Part shown: positions 13,086-56,450 of the stretch, in pieces
Numbering within the stretch: the first letter of the stretch is position 1
Layout of the letters: each line of letters opens with the position of its first letter
Assembly: GCA_963751705.1 (NCBI GenBank)
Contig: CAVVVN010000008.1
Coordinates: forward strand, 131,259 to 195,258
Direction of reading: 5' to 3'
Source of the DNA: an uncultured Bacteroidales bacterium
GTDB taxonomy: Bacteria; Bacteroidota; Bacteroidia; Bacteroidales; GCA-2748055
DNA: 64,000 nucleotides
Program-made: the position numbers and the translations under genes
The notes under the pieces: generated by a model
Databases searched by the model: none
What the model saw: only the letters and a program-made list of their open reading frames with translations
Told to the model about the DNA's origin: nothing

Positions 13086-14390
13086 TCACTTGGATATACC
13101 TACACTGCTTTCTAATTCTATGATTGCATCATATAAAACCCCTGCGGATCCCTTAAATTTTTCAGATCCACGAGGTTGATTATCTAAAGTGTACCATTCC
13201 ATGAAATCATCATTTTTAATAACTCTCTGTACAAGAGGAATTAAATGTTTATACGCCTCTTCTAAATAACCATATCTGACTAGTTGCTTTACCATTCGAG
13301 CCCCAAACCAGGTCCAGTCACCACCATTTTGATAGGTATATGGAATTTCCAATTGAGGATTCTTGATAAATCCTTTTGGATAGGCTGGTTCTACAGATAA
13401 CCCAATGGAGGAAGCATTCACTCGCTTCATTCGTTTCTCCATTTCCTTCAGTGTTATCAGAATTTCATCTGTCGATAGTATTCCAGCTTCTATGGCTACG
13501 GCAGTTCCTCCAAAATAAAACACCTCCTTCTCGTTAAAACTCTCTGGGAATGGAGACTTATCCAGATATATATGTGGAATAAATTTATTGTTTTCACTAT
13601 CCCAAAGATACTTACGGACATTTTCAACCAATTGCTTTTTGAACGATCCAAATTTCTCTTCAGATTCAGGGACCATGTCAAACAGATTATTTAATGCCAC
13701 GATAAGCATTGCATTATCATAGATATCAATAGCAAGATTTGTTTTATCGTCCATATAAACTCCCCAGCTACTTTCAGGTTGTACATCACCCCAATCTATC
13801 GTAGTTGCACCAAATATAAGCCCATACTTCTCGCTATACCGGTTTTGCAATAAAAACTCAATGGCTAATTCCATTCGTTCTTTAACTGTTCTATCTCCTA
13901 CTTTATCAAGCAAAATAGTTTTGTCATTTGTGTGCTTAATATATTTATAAACAGCTTGAATAAGAGAACTTTCCTGGTCGGTTTCGACCGTTGCTTTATC
14001 GCCGGCATATTCCGGCGCCAAAGATGAACGATATTGGAAACTTGATGAATTTGGACTTAAATTTTCCCGGGGAGTGATTACATCCAGAATACTTCCATTT
14101 TCTTCCTGCATTTTGAAAAACAACAACAAATTCTCTTTTGCTTGTTCAGGAGGATTTACCAATAAAGCAATGTTCATAAACGTATTATAATCTCGAATAA
14201 AAACTTGATTTGTATACCCCGAGCCAGCATCAAATCCTTCCTTTATTGTGTGAAGGGCCTTTTCTTTTACAATCGCAAGATTCTTATCATCCTTTACTAT
14301 TATTCTCAATTTTTCAATCGATTTATCTTGTTCGGTTGCACACATAACTTGTGTAACAAGAATAATTGTAATTAATCCTAGTTTTTTCAT
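13086..14390 (-). CDS. Six-hairpin (alpha/alpha)6 glycoside-hydrolase-like protein, GDE_C/GH63/GH100-like superfamily, family unassigned (paralog of 22429-23730)
   Basis: ATG at 14390 (MKKLGLITIIL..; the track extends to 14426). Motifs GSGYTNQVFIRD, VETDQESSLIQA, TTIDWGDVQ, IDIYDNAMLIVAL and YQNGGDWTWFG recall amylo-1,6-glucosidase/neutral-invertase-type barrels. Confidence 0.6.
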   Translation of the reverse strand: MKKLGLITIILVTQVMCATEQDKSIEKLRIIVKDDKNLAIVKEKALHTIKEGFDAGSGYTNQVFIRDYNTFMNIALLVNPPEQAKENLLLFFKMQEENGSILDVITPRENLSPNSSSFQYRSSLAPEYAGDKATVETDQESSLIQAVYKYIKHTNDKTILLDKVGDRTVKERMELAIEFLLQNRYSEKYGLIFGATTIDWGDVQPESSWGVYMDDKTNLAIDIYDNAMLIVALNNLFDMVPESEEKFGSFKKQLVENVRKYLWDSENNKFIPHIYLDKSPFPESFNEKEVFYFGGTAVAIEAGILSTDEILITLKEMEKRMKRVNASSIGLSVEPAYPKGFIKNPQLEIPYTYQNGGDWTWFGARMVKQLVRYGYLEEAYKHLIPLVQRVIKNDDFMEWYTLDNQPRGSEKFKGSAGVLYDAIIELESSVGISK

Positions 14391-14450
14391 ATGATTGCTA
14401 TATAAAATTAAGCGATCGAAAACCACCCGATATATATAGAAAAGTAAAAC

Positions 14451-22428: not shown

Positions 22429-23730
22429 CTATTCCAGGTTTTCCTTTGCCCATTCCCTGAACATCATTATGGACTTTCCAAGCACACCAGCGGACCCTTT
22501 GAATTCAGCCGAACCGGCAGGTGTACCATCCAGTCTATACCATTCATAAAAATCATCATTTTTGATAACCCGTTCAAACATAGGCTGGACAAGTGTATAT
22601 GCTTCCTCCACAAAGCCATACCTGATCAGTTGCTGGATCATTCTTCCCCCGAACCAGGTCCAGTCACCCCCGTTTTGATAATGATACGGCCTGGATACAC
22701 CCTTACCAAGTACCTCTTGAGGATAAGGTGGGTAGAGAGTAAGGCCTATCGAAGGTGCGCCAGAGGCTGCAATATTTCTTTTCATATGAGACAGTACAGC
22801 AGCGATCTCTTCCCTGTTTAAATTCCCGGCTTCAATAGCCACTGCAGTTCCCCCGTGGTAATGAATTTCATTCTCATCAAATGTGGATGGGAAAGGAGAT
22901 CCATCGAGATAGATATGTGGAATGTACTTTTTATTCTCATCATCCCATAAATGTAATCTTATGTTCGTCTTGGTTTTTGTGTGCAGGTCCCTCCATCTTT
23001 CTTTTTCTTCCGGCGAATCCGCAAAACTCTCCATAGCCTCCAGAGCGATCATCAACATCGCATTATCATAAATATCTATGCTCCAGTGCGTAAGTTCATC
23101 CACATCGACTATTACGCCACCTTCTACCTGCACATCCCCCCAGTCGAAGGTGGTCGCCCCAGTAATAAGACCATATTCTGCCGAATACCGCTCCGCCAGA
23201 AGATAATCTATCGCATCTGAAAGTCGCTGATAAACGGTTTCCCCGGCAACCACCTCATTCAAAATATCGCGATCCCCTGTTTTGTCAATATACTTGAAGA
23301 TGGCCTGGATCAAGGAAGTCTCCTGATCAGTTTCAACGGTATTTTTAAATCCGATATGACCGGGGGCTGTGATTGATTCATAGGTGTTCGGGTCACCCCA
23401 GGTGAAAGCTTCCCTGGGCACGTAGCCATCCAGCAACTCCCCGTTCTTCTGCTGGAAATGAAAAAACATCAATAGATTCTCCCGAATAATAGCTACGTCG
23501 TATTCCTCACAGGACAATTCTATGAATGAATTCAAATCACGTGCCCATACCATTTGATAACCGGAACCTGCATAAAACCCATTTTTCATCAAATCCCTGG
23601 CCATCTGATCCACCTTGATAAGGTTCGTGTCGTTCATAATCTGCCGGGCAAGTTCCGGGTTCTTTGCATCCCTAAAGGAACACGAGACCAAAAATAGTAG
23701 CGAAAGTGTATAATAAACTTGTCTTTTCAT
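22429..23730 (-). CDS. Six-hairpin (alpha/alpha)6 glycoside-hydrolase-like lipoprotein, paralog of 13086-14390
   Basis: 433 aa. Signal ..LFLVSCSF. The same motif set as its paralog: GSGYQMVWARD, VETDQETSLIQA, TTFDWGDVQ, IDIYDNAMLMIAL, YQNGGDWTWFG, and FKGSAGVL. Confidence 0.6.
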   Translation of the reverse strand: MKRQVYYTLSLLFLVSCSFRDAKNPELARQIMNDTNLIKVDQMARDLMKNGFYAGSGYQMVWARDLNSFIELSCEEYDVAIIRENLLMFFHFQQKNGELLDGYVPREAFTWGDPNTYESITAPGHIGFKNTVETDQETSLIQAIFKYIDKTGDRDILNEVVAGETVYQRLSDAIDYLLAERYSAEYGLITGATTFDWGDVQVEGGVIVDVDELTHWSIDIYDNAMLMIALEAMESFADSPEEKERWRDLHTKTKTNIRLHLWDDENKKYIPHIYLDGSPFPSTFDENEIHYHGGTAVAIEAGNLNREEIAAVLSHMKRNIAASGAPSIGLTLYPPYPQEVLGKGVSRPYHYQNGGDWTWFGGRMIQQLIRYGFVEEAYTLVQPMFERVIKNDDFYEWYRLDGTPAGSAEFKGSAGVLGKSIMMFREWAKENLE

Positions 23731-23781: not shown

Positions 23782-25575
23782 TTACAATTGATCCATGAAC
23801 TCTGTAAGCAATTGGTATTCTCTCCAGATCCTTTGATTAATGGATGAAAGTTCACCCAATTCACCACGCGAGCGAACCCTTGAGGCAAATGCGTTTATCA
23901 TTTTTTCAACCGGCGCCTTTGACAAGGCATCCCTGGCTGTATCGATTTGCTCCTGTGTGAATGCAATTCTATTCAAATGAAGCAAATAGGATGCTCTAAG
24001 ATCCCATGCGGGTTGCATCAATCTGCCCACTTTATCCAGATAGATTGCAAACTCAAAATATGCTCCGAACCATTTGAGATTTGCAATTTTATCCGGGTTC
24101 GCCTCCACGGAAATACAGTCCCCCACCAGATCAGACATTTGTTTGCATGCTTGAAGTTGTTCCGGTGTCAATCTTCCCCAGGCAGGTCGATAAGCATAAT
24201 ATTCTTCCGACCGGATTGAATTAATAAGGCCCGAGGCGTCCAGTTCTATCATGGCCGGAGCCAGTTTTTTTTCAGCGCATGTTCCCAGCTCATCACGGCA
24301 AAAATCCCGGTAAATCTTCTGCCAGCTCGTGGTGTCTTTCGGATGAGCCGCAAAATGGGCAAAGGTTTCCCAGTTAAGGCGAATTTCTTCCGTCCTCCAA
24401 TGAATGGCTACAACACCATCAAGGCCATCATGGTAGGCCTTCTGAATATGATCTTTGATGTTTTTTACATTGGGCTGAAAATGCCAGAGTGCATAATCAC
24501 TTTCGAGCCAGGGTATGGCCCATACTTTTCGGTGCTCAGCAATTTCCTTGAAGAAATCGGGATGGGGATCCAGCCCCTGACCAGGGTTGAGCATGGAAAA
24601 AACGATATCTTCCGGAAGCGCCCGGTCCATTCCCCTTAGCAGGGAAGCCATCTGTGACTCGGCTCCCCAGCCGCCGATCACAATTTTGGTATCCGGCGCT
24701 TTTAAGCGGATATAATCATAGGCCCGCTGTATATATGCCTGGGCCCACACACCAAGGAACCGGGTAGACTCGCTGACCCCGTCTCCCGCATATAACTCCT
24801 GATACTCCTGATAGAAGGCTTCCATATCCCGGTTCCGCAGGGCTATGGCCGGGTCCACGCCAAACATGCAGTGCTCATTCAACCACAAATAAATCCAGTC
24901 AATCCCCTGGTATGTGTCAATGATATCATCAATCGTGGCATGCAGGATGCCAATGGCGTCAGGATCAAAGGGATTATAAATCAGGCTCCCTGAGCCCATC
25001 CAGTACATATCGGTATGGGTACGAATGGAGGCATATTCGGGAGGAGCCACTCCGAACTCAAAACCCATGGCCATTTCTATGTTCCTTTCGTGTGCCATCT
25101 TCATAACATCCTGCATCAGTGCCTGCGCCTGTTCATAGCGTTCTTCATTCGTATAGGCAGTGACTGCAGCGTCTGCACCAAAATACTCCGCTCCCGGAGG
25201 CAGGTCAAAGAGGGTGTCTGTTCCGAAAGCGAAATCCGCTACCTTCATGGGCAGATAACCCCAACGGGCGGTCCCGGAATGATCAAACCCGGCTTCAGGC
25301 AGCACATTTTTGTATTGGATCCTGATCATGGGCTCCACATAATTGAAATAGCGTTCTCCTCCACCCGTATAATTATGGAACGCAATGAGATTGATGCCCT
25401 GTTCCTGACAATCATCAAGATAGTTTCTGTAATCCTCCAGGTTCCATGCAGTGGGACCCGACAGGAAATTATGCCACGGCAGAACACCGCGTATCTGGAA
25501 GGATTGTGCAAAACCGTTGAACTCAATCCCTTGCAATAAAATTAATAGGAGCGCATAAACAGCAATCTTTTTCAT
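23782..25575 (-). CDS. Secreted protein of unknown family, probable (beta/alpha)8 clan-A-like glycoside hydrolase
   Basis: 597 aa, signal ..NGFAQ. Alternating strand/helix pattern. Candidate acid/base motif IYLWLNEHCMFG and candidate nucleophile motif WAIPWLESDYALW. No family recognised. Confidence 0.55.
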   Translation of the reverse strand: MKKIAVYALLLILLQGIEFNGFAQSFQIRGVLPWHNFLSGPTAWNLEDYRNYLDDCQEQGINLIAFHNYTGGGERYFNYVEPMIRIQYKNVLPEAGFDHSGTARWGYLPMKVADFAFGTDTLFDLPPGAEYFGADAAVTAYTNEERYEQAQALMQDVMKMAHERNIEMAMGFEFGVAPPEYASIRTHTDMYWMGSGSLIYNPFDPDAIGILHATIDDIIDTYQGIDWIYLWLNEHCMFGVDPAIALRNRDMEAFYQEYQELYAGDGVSESTRFLGVWAQAYIQRAYDYIRLKAPDTKIVIGGWGAESQMASLLRGMDRALPEDIVFSMLNPGQGLDPHPDFFKEIAEHRKVWAIPWLESDYALWHFQPNVKNIKDHIQKAYHDGLDGVVAIHWRTEEIRLNWETFAHFAAHPKDTTSWQKIYRDFCRDELGTCAEKKLAPAMIELDASGLINSIRSEEYYAYRPAWGRLTPEQLQACKQMSDLVGDCISVEANPDKIANLKWFGAYFEFAIYLDKVGRLMQPAWDLRASYLLHLNRIAFTQEQIDTARDALSKAPVEKMINAFASRVRSRGELGELSSINQRIWREYQLLTEFMDQL

Positions 25576-25596
25576 TATATCGTTCTGATAATTCTT

Positions 25597-25636
25597 GAAA
25601 AAGTATTCGGTGTATTAAGTTACACCGAATACTTTC
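25597..25636 (-). terminator. Strong hairpin (15-bp perfect stem) between a GH92 gene and the unknown TIM-barrel gene; possible internal terminator or attenuator
   Basis: AAAGTATTCGGTGTA (25600-25614) pairs with TACACCGAATACTTT (25621-25635) around a 6-nt loop. On the minus-strand transcript the stem is followed by UUUUUC. Confidence 0.45.
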
Positions 25637-25688
25637 ATCTGTTATTACAAAAATGTTGCTGAGACAACACTTTTATAACCAGGCTCAG

Positions 25689-27968
25689 TTACTCAATTCC
25701 CCATTCCTTATTGGGCTGATTTCCCATAATCAGTTCAAGTTTTCCTCCATTCACGATATCTTTGAATTTAAACCTGCAACTGTTGAGCGGTTCACCGTTC
25801 AGACGGGCTGACTGAACATAATAATTGTCGCTAGAGTTATTTTTAGCTTCAATCACAAACTTACCCCCGGGGTAATAATTTTCATCCAGATGGATGGTGA
25901 TCCTGTCAAAGAGCGGGCTACCGATATTGACCATCGGTTCTACGGCTGCCCCGCCTTCCATCTCAAACAGGCCCATGGAACTCATCACGAACCAGGCCCC
26001 CATCTGTCCTTCATCCTCGTCACCCAGCCAGCCATGCAGCGGGGTGGCCCCATAGTACCTGTTCATGATCTCCCGGGTCCACTTTTGTGTGAGCCAGGGT
26101 TTTCCTGAATAATTAAAGAGGTAAGCTGCCTGCATGTTCGGCTGATTGCCATGGTTGATGTAATGCGCTGCCATTCTGTCTCCGGTGGCATTGAAATTCT
26201 CATTCTGTGATAACTCAAATCCATCGTTCAACCTCTGGTTAAACTCCTCCTCGCCAATCATACTGACAAGTTCTTTTACATCCTGCGGAACAAAGAAGGT
26301 GTACTGCCAGGAGTTTCCTTCCACAAACTCGTTCCGGGGACTACTCAAAATATTAAAGTCTTCCCTGAAACTGCCATTTTCGTGCCTGGGACGCATAAAT
26401 TTGGTTTCAGGATCAAACATATTCTTGTAATATTCGGCCCGCTTCGAAAACTCCCGGAATTCCTTTTTTTTGCCGAGAGCCTTGGCAAATTGCGCCACAC
26501 ACCAGTCGTCATAGGCATATTCAAGCGTATTGGAAACATGTCCTGCTTCAGTTGGTACGTACCCATATTTCAGATATGGTTCCAGTTTCAAGTTCCCGAC
26601 AGATCCACCACAATCATATTTATGCCCGGGCACCGTTTGCTGGTGATATATAGCTTCCCAGGCCGTCTCTACATCATAATCCCTGATCCCCTTCTGATAG
26701 GCACTCACGATCAGGGGTATGGAGTGGGAGGCCACCATGATGCTCGAATACTCGATCCCTGCGGGTCCTTTTGACAACCAGCCGCCATCCCGATACATCT
26801 GCAACAGGGATTTCACCCACATGCTCGCCATATCGGGGTTGGCCAGGGTCCACAACTGGTTGAGGTTCCAGAAGGTGTTCCAGAACGCGTCGCAGCCCAG
26901 CATGGGTGAGTCATATTGCTTCACTTCTTCACAGGGATCCATATATTTACCATTTACATCGCTAAGGATAGCACGCGCTACATAGGAGCGGTAGAGGTTG
27001 GTATAGAACTTTGTCTTATCCACTTCGCTGCCTCCGCTCACCTCAATCTTGCTCAGCAGGCCATTCCAAACCTTCCGGGCGTCCGCCCTGACGGACTCGA
27101 AGTCCCAACTATACGGTTTGATCAATTCCTCCTCCAGGTTAAGCCTGGCCTGATCGATGCTGACCAGTGAGATACCCGTTTGCAGGAGGACTATTTCTCC
27201 TTCTTCCGTCTCGAAATCCACGTATGCCCCGATATCTCCTTTACCCGATATTTTGGTAATGTCTTTCTGAATTTCTTTTTCTTCCCAGCCACCAAAAAGT
27301 TTAAAAGGCTTGTTGAAGCGGGCCACGAAATGAACCACATAATCGTTGAACCTGCCACTGAGCTGATGCGAATAACCTTCAATCTCCGTATCACTTACTT
27401 TGGTGATCACGGCATCCAGCACTTCCGTTTTATATTCCTGCGGGAAGATCAGGTTGAAATATACATGACCCTCCTTAGTTTCGGGAAAGGTAAAACGAAA
27501 AAAACCGCAGCGCGTCGTACTGGTCAGTTCCGTTCGGATACCGAAGTCAACCAGGTCCACCGAATAATATCCCGGGTTGGCCTGCTCCGTATTCTTGTCA
27601 ATTCGGGAGCGATGGCCGGCAGTACCTCCTGTGCTGATCGGCACATCGGCATGGGGATATATTTGGGGTCTAAGCACCCCTTTGGCAGGCATGACTGACA
27701 AGCCAGACATGGTCCAGGCATGGATATGGCTGAATCCAAATACACTTCCGATTGTGTATTCGTAACCGGCCTTCCAATTCTGGCTCTGGTTGTCCGGGCT
27801 AAGTTGCACCATGCCAAATGGCAGGGTAACGCCCGGATTTAACATCCATCGTGATTCAGATGTACCCAACAATGGATCTGCATAGTCAACAGGTTCCTTT
27901 TGTTGCGAAAACAAATTTATAGCAGAGAAGCTGCAACAAATCAGGATAATCAAAAATACTTTTTTCAT
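25689..27968 (-). CDS. GH92 alpha-mannosidase
   Basis: 759 aa, signal ..LFSQQ. YADPLLGT, SHIHAWTMSG, NHGNQPNMQAAYLFNYSGKPWLTQKW, and GDEDEGQMGAWFV. Confidence 0.9.
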   Translation of the reverse strand: MKKVFLIILICCSFSAINLFSQQKEPVDYADPLLGTSESRWMLNPGVTLPFGMVQLSPDNQSQNWKAGYEYTIGSVFGFSHIHAWTMSGLSVMPAKGVLRPQIYPHADVPISTGGTAGHRSRIDKNTEQANPGYYSVDLVDFGIRTELTSTTRCGFFRFTFPETKEGHVYFNLIFPQEYKTEVLDAVITKVSDTEIEGYSHQLSGRFNDYVVHFVARFNKPFKLFGGWEEKEIQKDITKISGKGDIGAYVDFETEEGEIVLLQTGISLVSIDQARLNLEEELIKPYSWDFESVRADARKVWNGLLSKIEVSGGSEVDKTKFYTNLYRSYVARAILSDVNGKYMDPCEEVKQYDSPMLGCDAFWNTFWNLNQLWTLANPDMASMWVKSLLQMYRDGGWLSKGPAGIEYSSIMVASHSIPLIVSAYQKGIRDYDVETAWEAIYHQQTVPGHKYDCGGSVGNLKLEPYLKYGYVPTEAGHVSNTLEYAYDDWCVAQFAKALGKKKEFREFSKRAEYYKNMFDPETKFMRPRHENGSFREDFNILSSPRNEFVEGNSWQYTFFVPQDVKELVSMIGEEEFNQRLNDGFELSQNENFNATGDRMAAHYINHGNQPNMQAAYLFNYSGKPWLTQKWTREIMNRYYGATPLHGWLGDEDEGQMGAWFVMSSMGLFEMEGGAAVEPMVNIGSPLFDRITIHLDENYYPGGKFVIEAKNNSSDNYYVQSARLNGEPLNSCRFKFKDIVNGGKLELIMGNQPNKEWGIE

Positions 27969-28072: not shown

Positions 28073-29842
28073 TCATACCTCATCATGGCACTTTTGATTT
28101 GACTTTCTGTATGATTTCACAAAGGCTTTTACAAGCATGGCCCTTTTGTCAGATTCGTTTATTATTTTGTAAGATTCTGCCGCTGCCGGTACTACAATAG
28201 TCTCAGCATAGTTGAATCGTTTTTTCAAGCCGTTTTTGGTTTCTATCAAGATACTTGAACCTTCTACCAAACTTAATACATGGCATTTATTTTCAGTTTG
28301 AACTTCAACGGCTGTCGTAAAATGATATCGGTGAACATCATACAGATGCTTTTCGTGTGTAGGCAGGTGGAAAAGATCCCAATCTGTTCCTCTGTCAATT
28401 AAAACAGGTTTGGGAATTAGTTTTTCTTTCACGTAGTCTCCTTTTCGATTGAAACAGAGATTGTCCATTGCGCGCTGAATATTTATGGGTCGAGGGTGAC
28501 CATCCATATCCATGCGAAGCCAGTCGTACATCTTGAACGTAAAAATATAAGGAGTTGAACTTATTTCAAGGACAAGATTATTAATGCCCGAACCATGAAT
28601 AGTTCCCGGAGGAATCAGAAATAAGTCATGTTTACATGCCTTGTGTGTTTGTACATATTTATCAATCTGAACTTCGTTCTTTTTCTTGAAACTTTCTATT
28701 AAGACATCCTCAAATTCTTTGGGTTTTATATCTTCCTGAAACCCCAGGAATACTTTGGCATTGTCCTTTGTGTCGAGAATATAGTAGGTTTCTTCCTGTG
28801 TAAAATCCTCGTTGAAATGTGTTTTCGTGTATTCTTTGTGTGGATGGCACTGGATGGAGAGATTTCCCCCATTGAAGGTGTCAAGAAAGTCGAAACGAAT
28901 CGGAAACTCCACTCCAAATTCAGGATAAGCTTCACCTAAAACATTTTCTCCTTCCTGGAACATTACGGTGTCAAAAGAAACCTCTGCCACATTTCCCGAA
29001 CTTTCAAAAATCAGCCCGTTTTCGGGAACAATAAGCTCGAAAGACCATGCATAATTTGGGACATCTTTATTCAATCCATTTATTTTATTTACACACCACT
29101 GCCCTCCCCAGGAACCAGGTTCAAACCATGGACGAACACGTAAAACATTCTGGCTGATTTCATTCAATCCCATTCTTAAGTCATTGCCTTTCAACCAGGT
29201 AATTTTATCGGGACGCTGTCCGTCCACAAGCAAATCAATCTCTGGGAGAATTTTCTGTTTTTGTTTATTAAGTACTATCCAATCGACAAAATAGAAACGC
29301 TTGTACATGGGTTTTATCTCATCGGGTTGTGAAGCTCCAATGTTTATAATTGATTTTGCACGTGCACGAAACTGTAATTCATTCTTTGGCAGATCGACAT
29401 AGACCAGAATCCCTTCAATTCCAGCCAGGCTGGCCCCAACACCATAAACGATATTTATGGCGGCCGTATCATCCAATTCTATGTTTTGTAATTTATCAAT
29501 CTGAAAGAAATCTGGCAGATCAAGAGTGGTTCTTGTGCCAAAAATCGGGTCTTCTCCACCCAGAAACGGGCCAATCATTTCATCGATCTCTTCTTCCTCT
29601 TTCAAATAATCAGAAACATTGATCCAGTTAGCTAAAACTCCATTTTGGTGTAAATACCTATTAAGATTCTTTTTGATTAATTCGAAAAAAACTCCCTGAT
29701 AGCCTTCGATTATTACTGTTTTGCTTTTCATTAGTTCAGCAGCCAGGCTCTCAAATCCAAGATAAATCTTCCCCTCACCTAAATTATGTGTAGGGTATAA
29801 ACAGTAATCACCCACACTTTCTTTCTTCTTTTTGACAGGCAT
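28073..29842 (-). CDS. Long-form class I phosphomannose isomerase (cupin) with an extra N-terminal domain
   Basis: ATG at 29842 (alternative GTG at 29878, as in the track). PMI-type motifs [37 protein letters not shown] and [11 protein letters not shown]. The ~250 aa before the cupin have no family I recognise. Confidence 0.7.
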
Positions 29843-29891
29843 TAAATACTGACTCGATTTTCTGTATGCTCTATTCACGTTTTTCTGGCTT

Positions 29892-48168: not shown

Positions 48169-49980
48169 TTATAATGACAGTAAATAGGCTACCATGTCAT
48201 CTATTTCCTGCTCACTGAGTTCGGATGTCTTTCCATGTCTATCATCCGGATTATAGATTGTAAAAACTTCACGCAGGGAAACAGCCCGCCCGTCATGCAG
48301 GTAAGGCGCCGTCCGCCAGGCTTCAATCAATGACGGGGTATCTACTTTTTTCCCAACATCCTGCCCCAGGGTTGTACCCAGATCGTACATATTCTTATCG
48401 GTATAAAGAGGCGCCGGATGGCACTGTCCACAACCCAGCTGTTCATATATCTTTTTTCCGCGTTTAGCAGCCTTCCCAAGCTTTCCTTTGATTAAAAAAG
48501 GGCTCCTTTCCGGCTCCAATGATTTCAGGTAAGCATCAATGGCTTTGGCATCCTTTTCGGGACGAACTTTAAATTGAATATGCCTAATACCTGCCCGAAC
48601 GCCTGTCTCTCCATCGGCACGTACACCCAGCCACATGGCCCGGGGGGTTTTATGTGCCCATATCATCGACTTTACATTTTTAGGATTGCCCATGCCATCG
48701 TTAAGAAGGTCCCAGTTCAATCCATCGGTGCGGGCATCGGGGTGACAGGTCGCGCAACTAAGCCAGTTCTGGAAACATAAGGATGCATCGTTGAAGAAAA
48801 TCTCACCCTGTCGCTCTGCCGTAATCGGAACCTCTGGAGCCAGCTGGTAGTATGCCGTTTGAATATTGTCCGGATCGGAGAAATCGAGCACTTCCAGGTC
48901 ATCAGAAAAATAATGGGCAACATAGACCGTATTTCCATGCACAGCAATGGCTCGCGGACCATTCCCGTTTAGCTTGATCCGCTTGCGTATATCCTGCAGA
49001 AACGAAAGGTTATTGTGTGTGTTGAGATGCACCTCCTTTGTCGTATTCCCTACTTCTGCTTCCATTTTGCGGGTCATCTCAGACAGGTTTATCAGGCTGA
49101 TTTCATGATTCCCTGCCGCGCTTACTATCATTGTTTTACCATCCCCTGAAAAACCAATAGCCCAGGGATTCGTGAAGCCCCGATCTACATCATCAAGCAG
49201 AACCGTGTATTGCAACGATAAGTCAGAAACACGGATGACACTGAGTGCATCTGTAGAAATCCACCCTCGTGCCAGTTGCGTCGTCGGTACAAAATAACGG
49301 GCCATTAAATGGGTCACATAAACATACTTACCGTCTGGAGATAGTTTAAGGCTGCGTAATCCTTCCGCTCCGTTTACGAGTGGAATGGTGGTCACTTCAA
49401 GGCTTTGGGTGTTAATTACCGAAACCCTGGAGGCGACATAGTCCAGATTGGCAGCTCCATCAGGGATATGGTTGGCAACAAATAAATATTTCCCATCGGG
49501 GGTCAGGTCGGCTGCCACCGGTTCACGTAATACCGGAACACGTGCAATCGCTTTGCCCTTCTTCAGGTTAATGATCGACACATCGTTATTGAAGCGGTTA
49601 CAAACATACAATGTTTCACCATCGGGGCTAAGTACGGGCGACATTGGGGTATGCCCCACGGGAATTTCCTGCTTAAGCCTTCCTGTTTCCGAATCAATTT
49701 GATATACACTCCCATTATATCGCCCGGCCGTCACAAACAAATCTTTCCCATCTGCAGCCGGGATCACTCCGGTAGGTTCTGAATTCAATGGGAACTCATG
49801 AAGCACTTCTTTTGTTCCGGCATCCACACAAAGAATCTTTTTACCGGTGGCTGCCGTTACATAAATGGTTTGCTTATCCGGACTCAGATCAATGTCACAG
49901 GGCGACAGATAATTCTGCGCCAAAGCGGCCGGGCAGCTAAAAAGCAATAGTAGTACAGAATAAAATACTTGCTTTAACAT
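48169..49980 (-). CDS. Fusion of an N-terminal YVTN/lactonase-like beta-propeller with a C-terminal di-haem cytochrome c peroxidase/MauG-family domain
   Basis: 603 aa with a signal peptide. Repeats LSPDKQTIYVT, LSPDGETLYVCN, LTPDGKYLFVAN and LSPDGKYVYVT. CxxCH at 48742-48756 (CATCH) and 48418-48432 (CGQCH). CCP hallmark TPSLIEAWRTAPYLHDGR. Confidence 0.8.
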   Translation of the reverse strand: MLKQVFYSVLLLLFSCPAALAQNYLSPCDIDLSPDKQTIYVTAATGKKILCVDAGTKEVLHEFPLNSEPTGVIPAADGKDLFVTAGRYNGSVYQIDSETGRLKQEIPVGHTPMSPVLSPDGETLYVCNRFNNDVSIINLKKGKAIARVPVLREPVAADLTPDGKYLFVANHIPDGAANLDYVASRVSVINTQSLEVTTIPLVNGAEGLRSLKLSPDGKYVYVTHLMARYFVPTTQLARGWISTDALSVIRVSDLSLQYTVLLDDVDRGFTNPWAIGFSGDGKTMIVSAAGNHEISLINLSEMTRKMEAEVGNTTKEVHLNTHNNLSFLQDIRKRIKLNGNGPRAIAVHGNTVYVAHYFSDDLEVLDFSDPDNIQTAYYQLAPEVPITAERQGEIFFNDASLCFQNWLSCATCHPDARTDGLNWDLLNDGMGNPKNVKSMIWAHKTPRAMWLGVRADGETGVRAGIRHIQFKVRPEKDAKAIDAYLKSLEPERSPFLIKGKLGKAAKRGKKIYEQLGCGQCHPAPLYTDKNMYDLGTTLGQDVGKKVDTPSLIEAWRTAPYLHDGRAVSLREVFTIYNPDDRHGKTSELSEQEIDDMVAYLLSL

Positions 49981-52701: not shown

Positions 52702-55700
52702 TCAAATTATGACTTGCATATAGGTGATTGTTCCAATTTTATCAGAGTCAGGAACCTGCCATACAACTTTTTTGTCTTTGTTTAGCTCAAAAAGAGGTGT
52801 GCCTTTGCCTTTTGCATCCCAACCAAGCCAGTTGCAAACAATGGTGTTGCCATTATCAAGCCTGTTAATTCCAAGAATAAATTGCAGTTTCATCGCCGGG
52901 ACATCTTTTTCAGTTAATTCCCATACGATATTTCCTGCTGTATCATATTCAAGAATTCCTTTCTGCCACGAAACCAAGGTATGTCCATTTTTCAGGCGTT
53001 GCCCCATAAAGACATGCCCCGGGGCATTAAAGTCACGGATAATTTTTCCTTCAGCATCATATTCCCGGGCAAGATTATCTCCCAGATGTCCTACAAGATA
53101 GGTTCCCTGAGGTGTTTTCCGTGCATGCCGGAGTGCCCAGTGCCTGTCTTCATTTTTGCATGTAAGTGGAATGGTCTTTACAATCTCTCCCTGTGGATTT
53201 ATCTCACAAATGCGCAGAGGAACTGATTCTGCAATCAGGGTATTTCCATCACTCAGGCGTTGACAGCTATTGACCTCTCCTTCTGACTTATAGTAAAATA
53301 CCTGCATATGACCGGGTGTTACCTCAATGACCTCTTTGCCCGTTGCAAACAGGACATTCCCGCTGGGGAGTTTTGTCACATCCGTACAGGATCTTGCATC
53401 ATGCTCCCAGATAACACGCCCCTGCCGGTCAAATTCCCGAACCTTCTGAGCTCCATAGTCAGAACATATAAAACTACGTGATGACTGCAGCTGTGTAATA
53501 GAAGGAGAATTGGCAAGGCAGCTTTCCGGATATGGATTCTCGTACAAATGCGGTTTTTCTGCTCCTGGCGGGTAATACCACAAAGACTCCCAGTACCGCT
53601 GATCAGTCTTGTAAAAGTCAATTGGATCCTTAGCCAGGTCGAATGAATCAGGAAGTATCCCATACTTTTTCATCTCACGAACATATTCCCGACGTGGCTT
53701 AAAGCCCTCCATGTCGAATCTTTTTCGTTGATCAAGCAACGAACCTGCCGCCCGGATGCCTTGAAGGATTAATTGGTACTCCGGATCATTCTTGCTCGTA
53801 AATATCGCTTTTTGAGTACTGCTTTTTTCCAATTTACACTTCCCGTATCCTCCAGCATCAGCAGAAAGTGGAGCCAGCAGGATCAATGATTTCTCCGGGT
53901 AACTCAGGTTATAGACAATATCCCGCATAAAATTTGTCTTCCATGTTTTATCACCTACCACCCAGGCTTGTATATGAACGTAGGAAGGATGGGTTGCCAG
54001 GCGGGTATCTCCCTGATGGCAGGATGCACATTTTTTTTCCAGGACTGCTTTCATTTCCTGCACTTCGGGTAGGTCCAGATCACTGTTATCGGTAATCAGG
54101 TGTCCTTCATTCAGTCCAATTGATCCTGTTCCCAGGGCTGCGTATGTACCTGGATAAGTAGCTCCGGTATTTATCCAGTAACGAAGTAACTTAATTTCCT
54201 TCTCAGAAAGTTTCGCATCATGGTGGCTTCCATCGAGCTTGTCCATCAGCGGACTGGCAGCATCTCCTATATCACGGGGAGGATAATTACTGACTGCCAG
54301 ATTTCTTCCCATGACATACTCTCCCCTGGCCTTGAGATTGTAATAACTATGAGAATAAATGGGACCATGATCTCCGGTCAGCAATATACCTCCCATATAA
54401 TTTTCAGGCCTGTGGCATTTGACACAATGTTTGTCAAGCACCGGCTGTATATCCCTGGGAAAGTCAATAATATCCGGTATATCTCTAACGGGTTCAGGGA
54501 TGGAGGGCTTTCGCCGGGCGGCAAGCGGTCTGCTATTTTTCTGTGGAACAGGAGCAGTGGTCCTTTTTTCATGGCATCCGACACAACCTGTTACTTCTCC
54601 CGGCACAACCGATAAAAAACTCTGCATACGCTTTACACTGCTATCGTCTTTATCAAGTGCAACAAAAAAGAAAGGACGGTTTGCAGGTAGTTCCATAATC
54701 GCTGAGCCATCAGCTTCTACAGGAACTGTACCCAGAATACGTTCCAGGGTAAAGCTGCCGCCCCAGGTCAGGGGCTCCATGCTCCCGGTAAACTGACAGG
54801 GTTTTGGCAATGCTTCCAGGATCAATAGTTTTTTTATTTCTCCCTGTTTAATCCCTTCCATGTTTCTACCGGTATACACATCATTTACAAAGAGTGTTCC
54901 GGTTCCTTTCGATAGATCCACCCTGGAAGGGATAACCGGTTCCCGCTTACGCCCGGTTAAGGGACGGGGTTCCTGTACATTCGTATGACCGAATTCCGGT
55001 GGCAGAGAAAAAAATGGAAGTTCATTTCCTTCTGAATCAATAAAAAACATTTTATTGCCACTTGCTGCAATATACAAGTCTTCAGACAAGGGGTACGGAT
55101 CCCGGAAATCACTTCCCTGACTAAGATATTTCAATTGATTAAGATCATCCGGGCCATTGGAAATATTCGCCGTGGCTACTCGCCCGCTATGATCTGTCTG
55201 TCCATGCCCGGGAGAGCAGCTCAGGACAATACTGGAGCTGCCGGGAATCGGTTTGGCATCGATAAAAACATTACCCGGGTTTAAATTGCCATAATAAACC
55301 ATCTGGTTGGTTCCATCGGGCTTCATGGTCCATAAATGATGATAATGCACCTGGCTCCTGTCAATATACTCCCAGCGGGTATAGAGAATTTGTCCGTCGG
55401 GTAGCACCCACGGGGTGTTGTCATGTTCGATATTTGCAGATAACTGGCGAATATTTTTCCCATCCCCATCACACCGGTAAATAGTTGCAACGGGTACCTG
55501 CCAGCAATTCACCCATCTGTTACAGCGACTGGATACAAATATTATCCCACCGTCAGGCAGGTAGATAGGTTCAATATCGGCATAGGGGCCAAAGGTTAAC
55601 TGCTTTAAACCGGTTCCATCAACATTAATTTCGTAAATATGAAAATGCTCGCTCCCGGCTTTTCTCCAGGAAAACAGGATTTTTTGACCATCGTAATGTA

Positions 55701-56433
55701 ACTGGGGATCGCGAACCGTTCCTTCAGGATCATTCACCAAGGTGCTTATATTACCTGTGCTCATATTGTATTTGCATAAACGCCCCTGCTTCCCATAGTT
55801 TTTGTATGATGGATCCAGGCAGTAGTAGGCGAAATTTGCATACCAATGCCCCCATACGTGGTCCTTGCAATCTTCCCGAACAGCAAACACTATCTCCTCA
55901 AAGTTCAACTGCTTTTTAATCGCATTCAATTTCGCTTTGCGCCTTTTTTCAGTCTCTCTCTTTCGGAGCTCAACGATTCTTGCAGGTTCAGGATCGGGAA
56001 ATGTAATATCCCATATGGAATAACACAGGGCCGGATCTTTATTTATAGATAGGATGCGAAAGAAACGCCCCTGAAATTCCAGGTGGTTTAAGGTGGTTAA
56101 ACCACCTTTCCCATTCTTTTCATGGTATACCGTATTCCAATCTTCACCGTTTCCGGAAGATTGAATACAAAATTCCTTTGCAGAGGTATTCTCCCAGTGA
56201 ATGATAATATTCTCAAACGATACTGATTTGTGAAAGTCATAAAGCAACCAGGCAGTCTGCTCATTTTTTTTACTGACCCACCGGCTGGTTTCATCTCCAT
56301 CAAAGGCGTATTCAGCCAGATAAGTCGTACCTAATTTACCCGAAGAACGACTTATTGTATCCTGAGCCTGCAACACAGGGTTGAACAGAGATAATACCAG
56401 CACAACTGGAAAAGAAATCGATTTGATTTTCAT
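52702..56433 (-). CDS. Giant secreted multidomain protein: discoidin domain + TolB/HzsA-like beta-propeller + three CxxCH haem-c motifs (PSCyt1-like) + C-terminal beta-propeller
   Basis: ATG at 56433 (MKIKSISFPVVLVLSLFNPVLQAQ; the track starts at TTG 56454). Discoidin YAFDGDETSRWVS..AWLLYDF. Propeller DPQLHYDGQKILFSW / IEPIYLPDGGIIFVS / NTPWVLPDGQILYTR. CVGCH 54571-54585, CVKCH 54412-54426 (IQPVLDKHCVKCH..GGILL, PSCyt1-like), and CASCH 54016-54030. The C-terminal repeats run D.QGRVIWE, NPQGEIVKT, DAEGKIIRDF, DTAGNIVWEL and KDKKVVWQV. Confidence 0.8.
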   Translation of the reverse strand: MKIKSISFPVVLVLSLFNPVLQAQDTISRSSGKLGTTYLAEYAFDGDETSRWVSKKNEQTAWLLYDFHKSVSFENIIIHWENTSAKEFCIQSSGNGEDWNTVYHEKNGKGGLTTLNHLEFQGRFFRILSINKDPALCYSIWDITFPDPEPARIVELRKRETEKRRKAKLNAIKKQLNFEEIVFAVREDCKDHVWGHWYANFAYYCLDPSYKNYGKQGRLCKYNMSTGNISTLVNDPEGTVRDPQLHYDGQKILFSWRKAGSEHFHIYEINVDGTGLKQLTFGPYADIEPIYLPDGGIIFVSSRCNRWVNCWQVPVATIYRCDGDGKNIRQLSANIEHDNTPWVLPDGQILYTRWEYIDRSQVHYHHLWTMKPDGTNQMVYYGNLNPGNVFIDAKPIPGSSSIVLSCSPGHGQTDHSGRVATANISNGPDDLNQLKYLSQGSDFRDPYPLSEDLYIAASGNKMFFIDSEGNELPFFSLPPEFGHTNVQEPRPLTGRKREPVIPSRVDLSKGTGTLFVNDVYTGRNMEGIKQGEIKKLLILEALPKPCQFTGSMEPLTWGGSFTLERILGTVPVEADGSAIMELPANRPFFFVALDKDDSSVKRMQSFLSVVPGEVTGCVGCHEKRTTAPVPQKNSRPLAARRKPSIPEPVRDIPDIIDFPRDIQPVLDKHCVKCHRPENYMGGILLTGDHGPIYSHSYYNLKARGEYVMGRNLAVSNYPPRDIGDAASPLMDKLDGSHHDAKLSEKEIKLLRYWINTGATYPGTYAALGTGSIGLNEGHLITDNSDLDLPEVQEMKAVLEKKCASCHQGDTRLATHPSYVHIQAWVVGDKTWKTNFMRDIVYNLSYPEKSLILLAPLSADAGGYGKCKLEKSSTQKAIFTSKNDPEYQLILQGIRAAGSLLDQRKRFDMEGFKPRREYVREMKKYGILPDSFDLAKDPIDFYKTDQRYWESLWYYPPGAEKPHLYENPYPESCLANSPSITQLQSSRSFICSDYGAQKVREFDRQGRVIWEHDARSCTDVTKLPSGNVLFATGKEVIEVTPGHMQVFYYKSEGEVNSCQRLSDGNTLIAESVPLRICEINPQGEIVKTIPLTCKNEDRHWALRHARKTPQGTYLVGHLGDNLAREYDAEGKIIRDFNAPGHVFMGQRLKNGHTLVSWQKGILEYDTAGNIVWELTEKDVPAMKLQFILGINRLDNGNTIVCNWLGWDAKGKGTPLFELNKDKKVVWQVPDSDKIGTITYMQVII

Positions 56434-56450
56434 CTCGCAAATTTGCATTA

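What the first reader, a model, noticed from the sequence alone, without database searches (positions are those of the whole stretch)
23782..25575. 597-aa secreted TIM-barrel-like protein with NEH / LES motifs: candidate new clan-A glycosidase family
I recognise no family. The sequence has the alternating pattern of a (beta/alpha)8 barrel. It has an Asn-Glu pair at the end of a hydrophobic strand (IYLWLNEHCMFG) and a second Glu after another strand (WAIPWLESDYALW), which is the classic acid/base and nucleophile arrangement of clan GH-A. It sits between a six-hairpin enzyme and a GH92. A strong hairpin (25597-25636) separates it from the upstream GH92.
Basis: inference. Interest (0 to 1): 0.55.

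Follow-up and report, generated by a model that had tools for sequence, protein, structure and literature searches.

The report
Unclassified periplasmic TIM-barrel glycosidase-like family
This gene encodes a secreted enzyme-like protein with the barrel fold and paired acidic residues typical of sugar-cleaving enzymes; it belongs to a large, widespread bacterial family (also common in the gut bacterium Bacteroides fragilis) that no database names and nobody appears to have tested.

Summary
ORF 23782-25575(-) encodes 597 aa with a signal peptide and both quoted motifs. It lies between a GH92 and a six-hairpin gene, and strong hairpins fill the upstream spacer.

No Pfam, NCBIfam or PDB sequence match reaches threshold. 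The family is nevertheless large: 661 representatives at 50% identity, in Bacteroidota, Planctomycetota, Verrucomicrobiota, Calditrichota and Acidobacteriota. Every named member is called 'hypothetical'.

AlphaFold2 (pLDDT 91.7) gives a canonical (beta/alpha)8 barrel plus a C-terminal helical domain. E234 follows strand 4 and E358 follows strand 7. Both are near-invariant across the superfamily, together with D360, E173, W303 and W393.

The clan GH-A label is not supported:
- The Asn of the 'NE' pair is kept in only 11 of 108 distant relatives.
- The nearest folds are GH20, GH138, GH89, GH84, GH115 and GHL10/Cwp19. A clan-A family first appears at rank 45.
- Distant relatives carry the GH67N/GH20b-type N-terminal domain.

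Best reading: founding-type member of an unclassified glycoside-hydrolase-like family. It is probably periplasmic and uses a Glu/Glu pair on oligosaccharides from decorated glycans, here a sulfated alpha-mannan-type locus. Substrate and stereochemistry remain unknown. Novelty is moderate: a new family of a known kind.

The parts
23782..25575 (-). Complete ORF, 597 aa plus stop: the unclassified GH-like protein
   Evidence: homologues
25507..25575 (-). Signal peptide, residues 1-23 (MKK / hydrophobic core / GFA|QS), SPI type, no lipobox Cys
   Evidence: Sequence; modelled as a lone helix 2-22; same layout across the family. Read by eye, no predictor run
24331..25506 (-). (beta/alpha)8 barrel, residues 24-415. 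Strands: 28-33, 63-68, 167-173, 227-232, 297-302, 325-329, 351-356, 387-392. Long insertion 69-142 after strand 2
   Evidence: AlphaFold2 models
23782..24330 (-). C-terminal all-helical domain, residues 416-597 (seven helices), plus stop codon
   Evidence: full-length fold hits favour families with barrel + helical bundle
24874..24876 (-). Codon of E234, two residues after strand 4: candidate general acid/base
   Evidence: conserved 125/125 close and 106/108 distant relatives
24502..24504 (-). Codon of E358, after strand 7: candidate nucleophile (or base)
   Evidence: 125/125 and 113/117
24496..24498 (-). Codon of D360, invariant acidic residue next to E358
   Evidence: 116/117 distant relatives
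25057..25059 (-). Codon of E173 (GFEFGV) at the end of strand 3, near-invariant
   Evidence: 101/113
25599..25636 (-). Hairpin 2 of the GH92-target spacer: 15-16 bp stem, 6-nt loop, then UUUUUC; terminator-like
25639..25682 (-). Hairpin 1 of the same spacer, right after the GH92 stop codon
   Evidence: whole spacer z = -8.0
25689..27968 (-). Upstream neighbour: GH92 alpha-mannosidase-family protein
22429..23730 (-). Downstream neighbour: (alpha/alpha)6 six-hairpin protein with only weak GDE_C/GH94 matches; adjacent to the target on all four metagenomic contigs that carry it

Best explanation
The gene encodes a periplasmic, two-domain glycoside-hydrolase-like enzyme: a (beta/alpha)8 barrel plus a C-terminal helical domain. 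It belongs to a large sequence family that no database classifies.

Most likely mechanism: it cleaves a glycosidic bond with two carboxylates at the C-terminal rim of the barrel. E234 (after strand 4) would be the general acid/base and E358 (after strand 7) the nucleophile. D360, E173, H67, W303, H392, W393 and R394 would shape the -1 subsite. It would act on oligosaccharides already imported across the outer membrane.

In this window it is one component of a roughly 54-kb one-strand cluster for a decorated, probably sulfated, alpha-mannan-type glycan. That cluster holds 7 GH92, 4 GH38-type proteins and 3 sulfatases. Its role there is probably to break a linkage or remove a decoration that GH92 and GH38 cannot handle.

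Shown: ORF, family, fold, positions and conservation of the acidic residues, genomic contexts. Inferred: hydrolase activity, the roles of the two Glu, retention of configuration, periplasmic location, substrate class.
For: Fold:
- AlphaFold2 full-length model has pLDDT 91.7 and pTM 0.90, with eight strand-helix units and a helical C-domain. The barrel-only model has pLDDT 89.6.
- The top 50 Foldseek hits for the full-length model are all glycoside hydrolases (probability 1.00). The barrel-only list is too, apart from the GHL10 protein Cwp19. The families are GH138, GH20, GH89, GH84, GH115, GHL10/Cwp19, a GH13 branching enzyme and GH164.

Catalytic candidates:
- E234, E358 and D360 are invariant in 46 close sequences and in 32 sequences reaching down to 20% identity.
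- Over 150 representatives at 50% identity the counts are E234 106/108, E358 113/117 and D360 116/117.
- Both Glu are kept in the 23%-identical Bacteroides paralogue (FQSE, PWLERD).

Carbohydrate context:
- The window cluster holds GH92 x7, four GH38-type proteins, sulfatases x3, a GH43-like protein, two six-hairpin proteins, ROK, MFS, lyxose/mannose isomerase and a PfkB kinase.
- In other Bacteroidota the gene sits in SusC/SusD loci (18 of 78 loci). Examples: SusC-SusD-DUF3823-GH92-target in Parapedobacter, and GH3-SusC-SusD-SGBP-target-paralogue-GH26-GH5like-GH3 in Bacteroides.
- Fusions exist with GH2 and with an SGNH esterase.
- Distant relatives carry GH67N/GH20b domains, CBM6 and Laminin_G_3.

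Location: SPI-type signal peptides without a lipobox are found family-wide.
Against: - No activity has been measured for any member.
- No sequence or profile match to any characterised family reaches significance.
- Fold similarity is generic: TM 0.43-0.56 at about 10% identity.
- Model coordinates could not be read. So the Glu-Glu distance, pocket versus cleft shape, and overlay on known catalytic residues are all untested.
- There are four or five conserved acidic residues (E81, E173, E234, E358, D360), so the true catalytic pair may differ.
- Genomic context is heterogeneous. GH92 is a neighbour in only 8 of 78 loci, and outside Bacteroidota the neighbours are unrelated housekeeping genes. 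The mannan link therefore holds for this window, not for the family.
Confidence: 0.55

Rival explanations
1. It is a new family inside clan GH-A. This means a classical 4/7 retaining glycosidase with the NE acid/base motif, evolutionarily tied to GH5, GH2, GH26, GH164 and similar families.
For: The barrel fold is confirmed, with Glu after strands 4 and 7. The close family keeps N233-E234 in 124/125 sequences. GH164 (clan A) appears among the barrel-only hits at E 7e-8.
Against: - N233 is kept in only 11/108 distant relatives.
- No clan-A family is in the top 50 of the full-length search, and the first is at rank 45 in the barrel-only search, behind GH20, Cwp19 and GH138.
- Relatives carry the GH67N/GH20b N-domain and the protein has a C-terminal helical bundle; both are typical of the GH20/67/84/89/115/138 group.
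- hhalign against GH10, GH26, GH5-like and PF12876 gave probabilities below 1%. This is a low-power test because the profiles are thin.
Confidence: 0.12
2. It is a substrate-assisted hexosaminidase-type enzyme like GH20, GH84 or GH85. N233-E234 at the end of strand 4 would play the role of the GH20 Asp-Glu pair, acting on an N-acetylhexosamine residue.
For: GH20 hexosaminidases are the top barrel-only fold hits (E 1e-10, TMq 0.54-0.56). GH20C, GcnA and GH84 share the barrel + helical bundle layout. A polar residue adjacent to Glu at strand 4 mirrors the GH20 D-E pair (established knowledge of GH20, recalled not tested).
Against: - N233 is not conserved in the superfamily: it is P, S, H or A in most distant members.
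- An invariant Glu/Asp pair on strand 7 fits a protein nucleophile better.
- No hexosamine-related genes (GH18, GH20, NagA/NagB) were seen in the window or in the recurrent PUL types.
Confidence: 0.08
3. It is a uronidase, functionally analogous to GH67, GH115 and GH138. It would remove glucuronic or galacturonic acid (possibly 4-O-methylated) from decorated mannans or xylans.
For: - GH138 is the best full-length fold hit and GH115 is also listed.
- Relatives carry the GH67 N-terminal domain. The only profile hit in PDB sequences is that domain of GH67.
- No GH2, GH79, GH67 or GH115 gene is found in the window, although diatom and fungal alpha-mannans are often glucuronylated (established knowledge).
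- Neighbours in other loci include GH10, and corrinoid methyltransferase sets that could demethylate a methylated sugar.
- R394 is conserved in 105/117 distant representatives; R75 and R104 are invariant only in the close family (32/111 and 51/110 in distant ones).
Against: This is a resemblance of fold only. There is no sequence match to the GH67, GH115 or GH138 catalytic domains. GH67 and GH115 are inverting enzymes with different catalytic residues (recalled). The context evidence is indirect and heterogeneous.
Confidence: 0.12
4. It is not a hydrolase. It could be a barrel-fold glycan-binding or accessory protein, or another carbohydrate-active enzyme (lyase, phosphorylase, transglycosylase, esterase) that merely shares the fold.
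For: No biochemical data exist for any member, and all names are 'hypothetical'. The closest barrel by target-normalised TM, Cwp19/GHL10, is a cell-wall-lytic enzyme rather than a PUL glycosidase.
Against: Five acidic residues, three Trp/His/Arg positions and several Gly at strand ends are under near-absolute conservation down to 20-25% identity. That pattern is typical of a catalytic site. The protein is secreted and sits inside glycosidase clusters and SusC/D loci. Every family among the top fold hits is a glycoside hydrolase or, for Cwp19, glycoside-hydrolase-like.
Confidence: 0.1

Closest known systems
GH138 (alpha-galacturonidase of the rhamnogalacturonan-II system; PDB 6HZE/6HZF/6HZG)
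   Same: Best full-length fold match (E 3.5e-11, TMq 0.43-0.46) and among the best barrel-only matches (TMq 0.50-0.54). It has a (beta/alpha)8 catalytic barrel followed by helical elements and is PUL-encoded in Bacteroides. From memory, it uses two Glu in a retaining mechanism.
   Different: About 9-10% identity and no sequence or profile match. GH138 proteins are about 860 aa with extra domains. Catalytic residues could not be overlaid.
GH20 beta-hexosaminidases, especially GH20C/GcnA with a C-terminal helical domain (5A6B, 2EPO), and GH84
   Same: Top barrel-only hits (E 1e-10). GH20C and GcnA share the barrel + helical domain layout and similar length. Distant relatives of the target carry the GH20b/GH67N-type N-domain.
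   Different: GH20 uses an Asp-Glu pair and the substrate's acetamido group as nucleophile. The target has Asn-Glu, with a non-conserved Asn, plus an invariant Glu/Asp on strand 7. There is no Pfam GH20 match.
GH89 alpha-N-acetylglucosaminidase (human NAGLU 4XWH, CpGH89 2VCA)
   Same: Highest query-normalised TM for the full-length model (0.49-0.52). It has a barrel with Glu after strands 4 (FNEM) and 7 (APEG) and an all-helical C-domain (established knowledge). Two superfamily members show faint NAGLU_N hits.
   Different: hhalign of the family profile against a verified NAGLU sequence (residues 246-720 of the 4XWH chain) found nothing (probability 0.2-0.3%). The target lacks the N-terminal domain.
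GH67 / GH115 alpha-glucuronidases
   Same: Same three-part plan in distant relatives: GH67N-type N-domain, barrel, helical bundle. The GH67 N-domain is the only PDB profile hit. GH115 structures are among the fold hits.
   Different: The target itself has no N-domain. There is no match to Glyco_hydro_115 or the GH67 catalytic models. Those families are inverting (recalled).
GHL10 (Pfam PF02638; C. difficile Cwp19, 5OQ2/5OQ3)
   Same: This is the only Pfam family with any signal: 8 of 32 superfamily members hit it, best E 1.6e-5, over the strand 3-4 region. Cwp19 gives the highest target-normalised TM for the barrel (0.58).
   Different: The target scores 15.8 bits against a gathering cut-off of 27.9. 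Cwp19 is a cell-wall protein of a Gram-positive bacterium with no helical C-domain.
Clan GH-A families (e.g. GH164 beta-mannosidase 6T7G, GH5, GH26)
   Same: (beta/alpha)8 barrel with Glu after strands 4 and 7, and an NE pair in the close family.
   Different: The NE Asn is not conserved in the superfamily. Clan-A folds rank behind GH20, GH138 and GHL10. There is no profile similarity.

Membership tests
Clan GH-A | (beta/alpha)8 barrel catalytic domain | tested here: met
   AlphaFold2 models with eight strand-helix units, pLDDT 91.7 and 89.6
Clan GH-A | Acid/base Glu at the end of strand 4, preceded by a conserved Asn (NE motif) | tested here: not met
   E234 is at the right place and is invariant. 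But the Asn is kept in only 11/108 distant family representatives, and it is Ser in the Bacteroides paralogue
Clan GH-A | Nucleophile Glu at the end of strand 7 | tested here: inconclusive
   E358 lies two residues beyond strand 7 (351-356) and is conserved in 113/117 representatives. Its catalytic role and its distance to E234 could not be measured
Clan GH-A | Closer in structure or profile to clan-A families than to other barrel glycosidases | tested here: not met
   No clan-A hit in the top 50 for the full-length model. First clan-A hit (GH164) is at rank 45 for the barrel alone. hhalign against GH10, GH26, GH5-like and PF12876 gave probabilities below 1%
Clan GH-A | Retaining double-displacement mechanism | not testable with these tools
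   Needs NMR of products or trapping of the glycosyl-enzyme
GH20/GH67/GH84/GH89/GH115/GH138-type architecture (not a formal clan) | Barrel followed by a C-terminal helical bundle | tested here: met
   Helical domain 416-597. The best full-length hits are exactly the families with this layout
GH20/GH67/GH84/GH89/GH115/GH138-type architecture (not a formal clan) | N-terminal alpha/beta domain (GH20b/GH67N/NAGLU_N) | tested here: not met
   Absent from the target: the mature chain starts at strand 1. It is present in 10 of 32 sampled superfamily members
GH20/GH67/GH84/GH89/GH115/GH138 (sequence families) | Significant match to the family's catalytic-domain model or to solved members | tested here: not met
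   No Pfam, NCBIfam or PDB match in the barrel. hhalign against NAGLU was negative
GHL10 (PF02638) | Score above Pfam's gathering threshold | tested here: not met
   15.8 bits against 27.9, with a partial match to profile positions 60-159 of 311
GH195 (endo 6-sulfo-alpha-1,3-mannanase, GH99-like; PMC13063451) | GH99-like catalytic domain | tested here: inconclusive
   No GH99 structure appears in the top 50 fold hits of either model. No GH195 sequence was available for direct comparison
CAZy GH families without structure or Pfam model | Sequence match to the dbCAN/CAZy family models | not testable with these tools
   No CAZy or dbCAN library was available. Literature searches for GH190-GH201 found no matching description

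The most novel reading that the evidence does not exclude
The protein founds a new CAZy glycoside hydrolase family with a specificity not yet described. One example would be an enzyme that removes or cuts at a decorated residue (sulfated, methylated, xylosylated or glucuronylated mannose) so that GH92 and GH38 mannosidases can proceed. The same family would then be a missing activity in abundant human-gut Bacteroides PULs that also encode corrinoid O-demethylase-like genes.
Probability: 0.3. Interest if true: 0.62.

Novelty: new variant of a known kind. Interest (0 to 1): 0.45.

Why it matters
- If the protein is active, it defines a new glycoside hydrolase family. The family is large: 661 clusters at 50% identity, across at least five phyla.
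- It is carried by very common human-gut bacteria. The B. fragilis orthologue cluster alone has 1495 member sequences.
- Such families fill 'hypothetical' gaps in polysaccharide utilisation loci. They can explain how decorated mannans and other complex glycans are fully dismantled.
- It also links a barrel + helical-bundle layout and the GH67N-type N-domain to a further sequence family. That bears on how the GH20/67/89/115/138 group is related.
- It is not a new kind of mechanism or system.

Tried and rejected
- Paralogy with the other unannotated 601-aa protein at 28073-29878: BLASTP E 0.41, so they are unrelated. That protein is manA/cupin-like.
- PDB sequence searches with single sequence, close profile and broad profile. 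The only hits were spurious helical matches and the GH67 N-domain or Ig-like domains of distant relatives.
- hhalign of the family profile against verified human NAGLU, and against GH10, GH26, GH5-like, GH3, GH29, GH92, GH120 and PF12876 taken from the fetched loci: all below 1% probability.
- A conserved gene neighbourhood as a route to the substrate. Neighbours are heterogeneous, and outside Bacteroidota they are essentially random.
- The GH138 paper could not be read, so GH138's catalytic residues are quoted from memory only.
- Literature searches found no description of this family. Topics tried: new GH families (GH190-201), corrinoid demethylases in PULs, glucuronoxylomannan PULs.
- GH195 (sulfated-mannan endo-mannanase) was considered and set aside because it is GH99-like.
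- The 618-aa length of the cluster representative P0001 cannot be an N-terminal extension here. An in-frame TAA lies at 25617-25615.
Full report
1. THE OBSERVATION

The ORF at 23782-25575 on the minus strand is real: 597 codons with an ATG start. Both quoted motifs are there. IYLWLNEHCMFG contains N233 and E234. WAIPWLESDYALW contains E358.

The N-terminus (MKKIAVYALLLILLQGIEFNGFA|QS) has the form of an SPI signal peptide without a lipobox cysteine. In 46 relatives the same pattern recurs, and the mature chain begins directly at the conserved F-x-I-R-G-V-L-P-W-H-N-F segment.

The gene lies between a GH92 (25689-27968) and a six-hairpin protein (22429-23730). Together they fold at -40.4 kcal/mol, z = -8.0. 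The second has a 15-16 bp stem followed by a U-run and looks like an intrinsic terminator or a processing/stability element. Whether transcription actually stops there is not known.

2. NO KNOWN FAMILY, BUT A BIG FAMILY

- Pfam gives only a sub-threshold, partial GHL10 hit (15.8 bits against a cut-off of 27.9).
- NCBIfam gives nothing.
- PDB sequences give nothing, whether queried with the single protein, a 46-sequence profile or a 32-sequence broad profile.
- Yet the word-indexed search finds 426 clusters.
- The exhaustive search finds 661 representatives at 50% identity with E <= 1e-3, of which 97 have E <= 1e-30.
- Every name any source gives is 'hypothetical' or 'uncharacterized'. This includes a Bacteroides fragilis cluster of 1495 member sequences (AKA50868.1, I9VZ70_BACFG) and B. 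intestinalis WP_270611491.1.
- Genomes carrying the gene span Bacteroidota, Planctomycetota, Verrucomicrobiota, Calditrichota, KSB1, Ignavibacteriota and Acidobacteriota.

The exact protein occurs only on metagenomic contigs. The closest relatives are Marinilabiliales/Prolixibacteraceae-like: 82% identity over a fragment from Mariniphaga, and 63-65% from Tangfeifania, Proteiniphilum and a Prolixibacteraceae MAG. The window is therefore probably from that part of Bacteroidota. This is an inference.

3. FOLD

AlphaFold2 with the 46-sequence alignment gives a confident model (pLDDT 91.7, pTM 0.90).

| Element | Residues |
|---|---|
| Signal helix | 2-22 |
| Strand 1 | 28-33 |
| Strand 2 | 63-68 |
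| Strand 3 | 167-173 |
| Strand 4 | 227-232 |
| Strand 5 | 297-302 |
| Strand 6 | 325-329 |
| Strand 7 | 351-356 |
| Strand 8 | 387-392 |
| Seven-helix C-terminal domain | 416-597 |

Each strand is followed by a helix. There is a long insertion after strand 2 (69-142) and a shorter one after strand 4. A separate model of residues 24-415 gives the same barrel (pLDDT 89.6).

E234 sits two residues past strand 4 and E358 two residues past strand 7. E173 ends strand 3, and H392-W393-R394 end strand 8.

4. CONSERVATION

In the close family, N233, E234, E358, D360, E173, E81, H35, H67, W303, H392, W393 and R394 are invariant or nearly so.

Conservation over the 150 representatives at 50% identity, many only 25-30% identical to the target:

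| Residue | Kept |
|---|---|
| E234 | 106/108 |
| E358 | 113/117 |
| D360 | 116/117 |
| E173 | 101/113 |
| E81 | 103/109 |
| W303 | 113/114 |
| W393 | 115/117 |
| H67 | 104/108 |
| R394 | 105/117 |
| N233 | 11/108 |

At position 233 the distant sequences have Pro, Ser, His or Ala instead of Asn. The 23%-identical paralogue next to the orthologue in Bacteroides has FQSE and PWLERD at the two sites. The two Glu are therefore good catalytic candidates. The 'NE' signature is a feature of the close family only.

5. WHICH BARREL GLYCOSIDASES IT RESEMBLES

Foldseek with the full-length model against the PDB ranks these families:

- GH138 (E 3.5e-11).
- GH20C and GcnA.
- GH89 (highest TMq, 0.49-0.52).
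- GH84.
- GH115.

All are at about 10% identity. These are precisely the families built as a barrel plus a C-terminal helical bundle. No clan-A family is in the top 50.

With the barrel alone, GH20 enzymes lead (E 1e-10, TMq 0.54-0.56). Next come the GHL10 protein Cwp19 (TMt 0.58), GH138 and a GH13 branching enzyme. At rank 45 comes the clan-A GH164.

Distant relatives of the target are 800-1500 aa. They carry an N-terminal GH67N/GH20b (faintly NAGLU_N) domain and C-terminal CBM6 or Laminin_G_3 modules. The only PDB profile hit is that N-domain in GH67.

Profile comparison with a verified human NAGLU sequence, and with clan-A and other glycosidases taken from the fetched loci, found nothing.

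Conclusion: this is a glycosidase-type barrel, about equally remote from several groups. Its domain architecture points to the GH20/67/84/89/115/138 assemblage rather than to clan GH-A. Clan membership cannot be decided with these tools, but the specific clan-A claim fails two of its tests.

6. GENOMIC CONTEXT

In the window, the gene is part of a roughly 54-kb run of same-strand genes:

- Three sulfatases.
- Two six-hairpin proteins.
- A GH43-like protein.
- Seven GH92.
- Four GH38-type proteins (three with N- and C-terminal GH38 domains, plus DUF3863/3864).
- MFS transporter, ROK kinase, a manA-like protein, D-lyxose/mannose isomerase, mannitol-dehydrogenase-type and PfkB enzymes.
- A PF12876 cellulase-like protein.
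- Two beta-propeller/cytochrome c proteins.

This fits catabolism of a decorated, probably sulfated, alpha-mannan. A comparable four-enzyme cascade (sulfatase, GH195, GH92, sulfatase) for diatom C6-sulfated alpha-1,3-mannan was published in 2026 (PMC13063451). The target is not the GH99-like GH195 described there.

Across 78 genome loci the context is not uniform. SusC/SusD occur in 17-18 loci, distant paralogues in 11 and GH92 in 8.

Three PUL types recur:

- SusC-SusD-DUF3823-(GH120-like)-GH92-target-sugar transporter-PhyH, in Parapedobacter and Mariniphaga.
- GH3-SusC-SusD-SGBP-target-paralogue-GH26-GH5-like-GH3-URO-D-like methyltransferase-B12-binding protein, in B. fragilis, B. intestinalis, B. 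hominis and relatives.
- Target-GH10-URO-D-like methyltransferase-GH120-like, in Prolixibacteraceae.

Other neighbours include GH29, GH36-like, GH116-like, sulfatases and SGNH/SASA esterases. There are fusions to GH2 and to an SGNH esterase. Outside Bacteroidota the neighbours are unrelated.

So the family is firmly tied to complex-glycan breakdown. No single substrate emerges. Mannose-, xylose-, fucose-, galactose-, acetyl-, sulfate- and methyl-related partners all appear.

7. MECHANISM PROPOSED

Most likely (about 0.55): a periplasmic glycoside hydrolase using E234 as acid/base and E358 as nucleophile. The strand-4/strand-7 geometry usually goes with retention of configuration. D360 and E173 would assist, and the Trp/His/Arg positions at strand ends would bind the -1 sugar.

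Its periplasmic, non-lipoprotein nature suggests it works on imported oligosaccharides. In this locus it would plausibly clear a linkage or decoration that blocks GH92 and GH38.

Rivals:

- A true clan-A member (0.12).
- A GH20-like substrate-assisted enzyme (0.08).
- A uronidase analogous to GH67/115/138 (0.12; this is a substrate-level variant of the main idea).
- A non-hydrolase (0.10).

I could not read model coordinates. So the Glu-Glu distance, the pocket shape and residue-level overlays are all untested.

8. NOVELTY AND VERDICT

No Pfam, NCBIfam or PDB entry covers the family, and none of the held literature describes it. I could not query CAZy or dbCAN, so a recent CAZy family without a structure cannot be excluded.

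It is best described as a candidate new glycoside hydrolase family: a new variant of a well-known kind (barrel glycosidase in a glycan-utilisation cluster). It is widespread and present in major gut Bacteroides.

This is useful to CAZyme specialists and is testable, but it is not surprising in kind. Interest 0.45.

Noticed in passing
window 48169-49980 (-) and 52702-56454 (-): Two large secreted-type proteins combine beta-propeller repeats with c-type cytochrome/di-haem peroxidase-like domains. They partially match hydrazine synthase beta/gamma and the alpha-subunit middle-domain models, far below cut-offs. The second also has an F5/8 type C domain. Haem proteins inside a mannosidase cluster are unusual.
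   Followed up: no
L074:111-3701; L021:19828-21706; L019:19924-21777; L007:4994-6256; L012:13069-14331: PULs that carry the family in gut Bacteroides and other Bacteroidales also encode URO-D-like methyltransferases, a B12-binding corrinoid protein and, in L074, a methionine-synthase-activation-like protein. This is the make-up of a corrinoid-dependent O-demethylase. It hints that the target glycans carry O-methyl sugars. A literature search found no description.
   Followed up: partly
L017:11785-15000 (and c3 orthologues in L015, L019-L023, L057, L070, L074); L005:4288-9811: Distant paralogues (about 23% identity, 870-1080 aa) with a GH67N-type N-domain and CBM6/CBM35 lie directly next to the orthologue in Bacteroides PULs. 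Proteiniphilum has three family members in tandem. Both Glu are conserved in them.
   Followed up: partly
P0129 and L062:9974-14983; P0239: Natural fusions of the family domain exist. One is with a GH2 (beta-galactosidase/beta-glucuronidase-like) module, about 1670 aa. Another is with a GxDLY/SGNH acetylesterase plus Laminin_G_3, 1548 aa.
   Followed up: no
window 28073-29878 (-): A 601-aa protein with no Pfam family and only a weak partial match to class I mannose-6-phosphate isomerase (TIGR00218, 32.8 bits against 116). It is unrelated to the target.
   Followed up: partly
window 22429-23730 (-) and 13086-14426 (-): Two (alpha/alpha)6 six-hairpin proteins have only weak or near-threshold matches to GDE_C, GH94-superfamily and GH100 models and no NCBIfam hit. 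They are further candidate unclassified glycosidases in the same cluster.
   Followed up: no
window 25576-25688 (-): The GH92-target spacer holds two adjacent strong hairpins, not one. The second is followed by a U-run. The whole spacer has z = -8.0 against shuffles.
   Followed up: yes
window 10088-63940: About 54 kb of genes all on the minus strand: 7 GH92, 4 GH38-type, 3 sulfatases, sugar-catabolic genes. No SusC/SusD pair lies inside the window, so the transport genes, if any, must lie outside it.
   Followed up: partly
L062:8238-9950, L027:11932-13665 (cluster c46); L047:7425-10808; L027:7696-9894: Several further large proteins that recur next to GH92 and the family in Bacteroidales loci have no Pfam match at all.
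   Followed up: no
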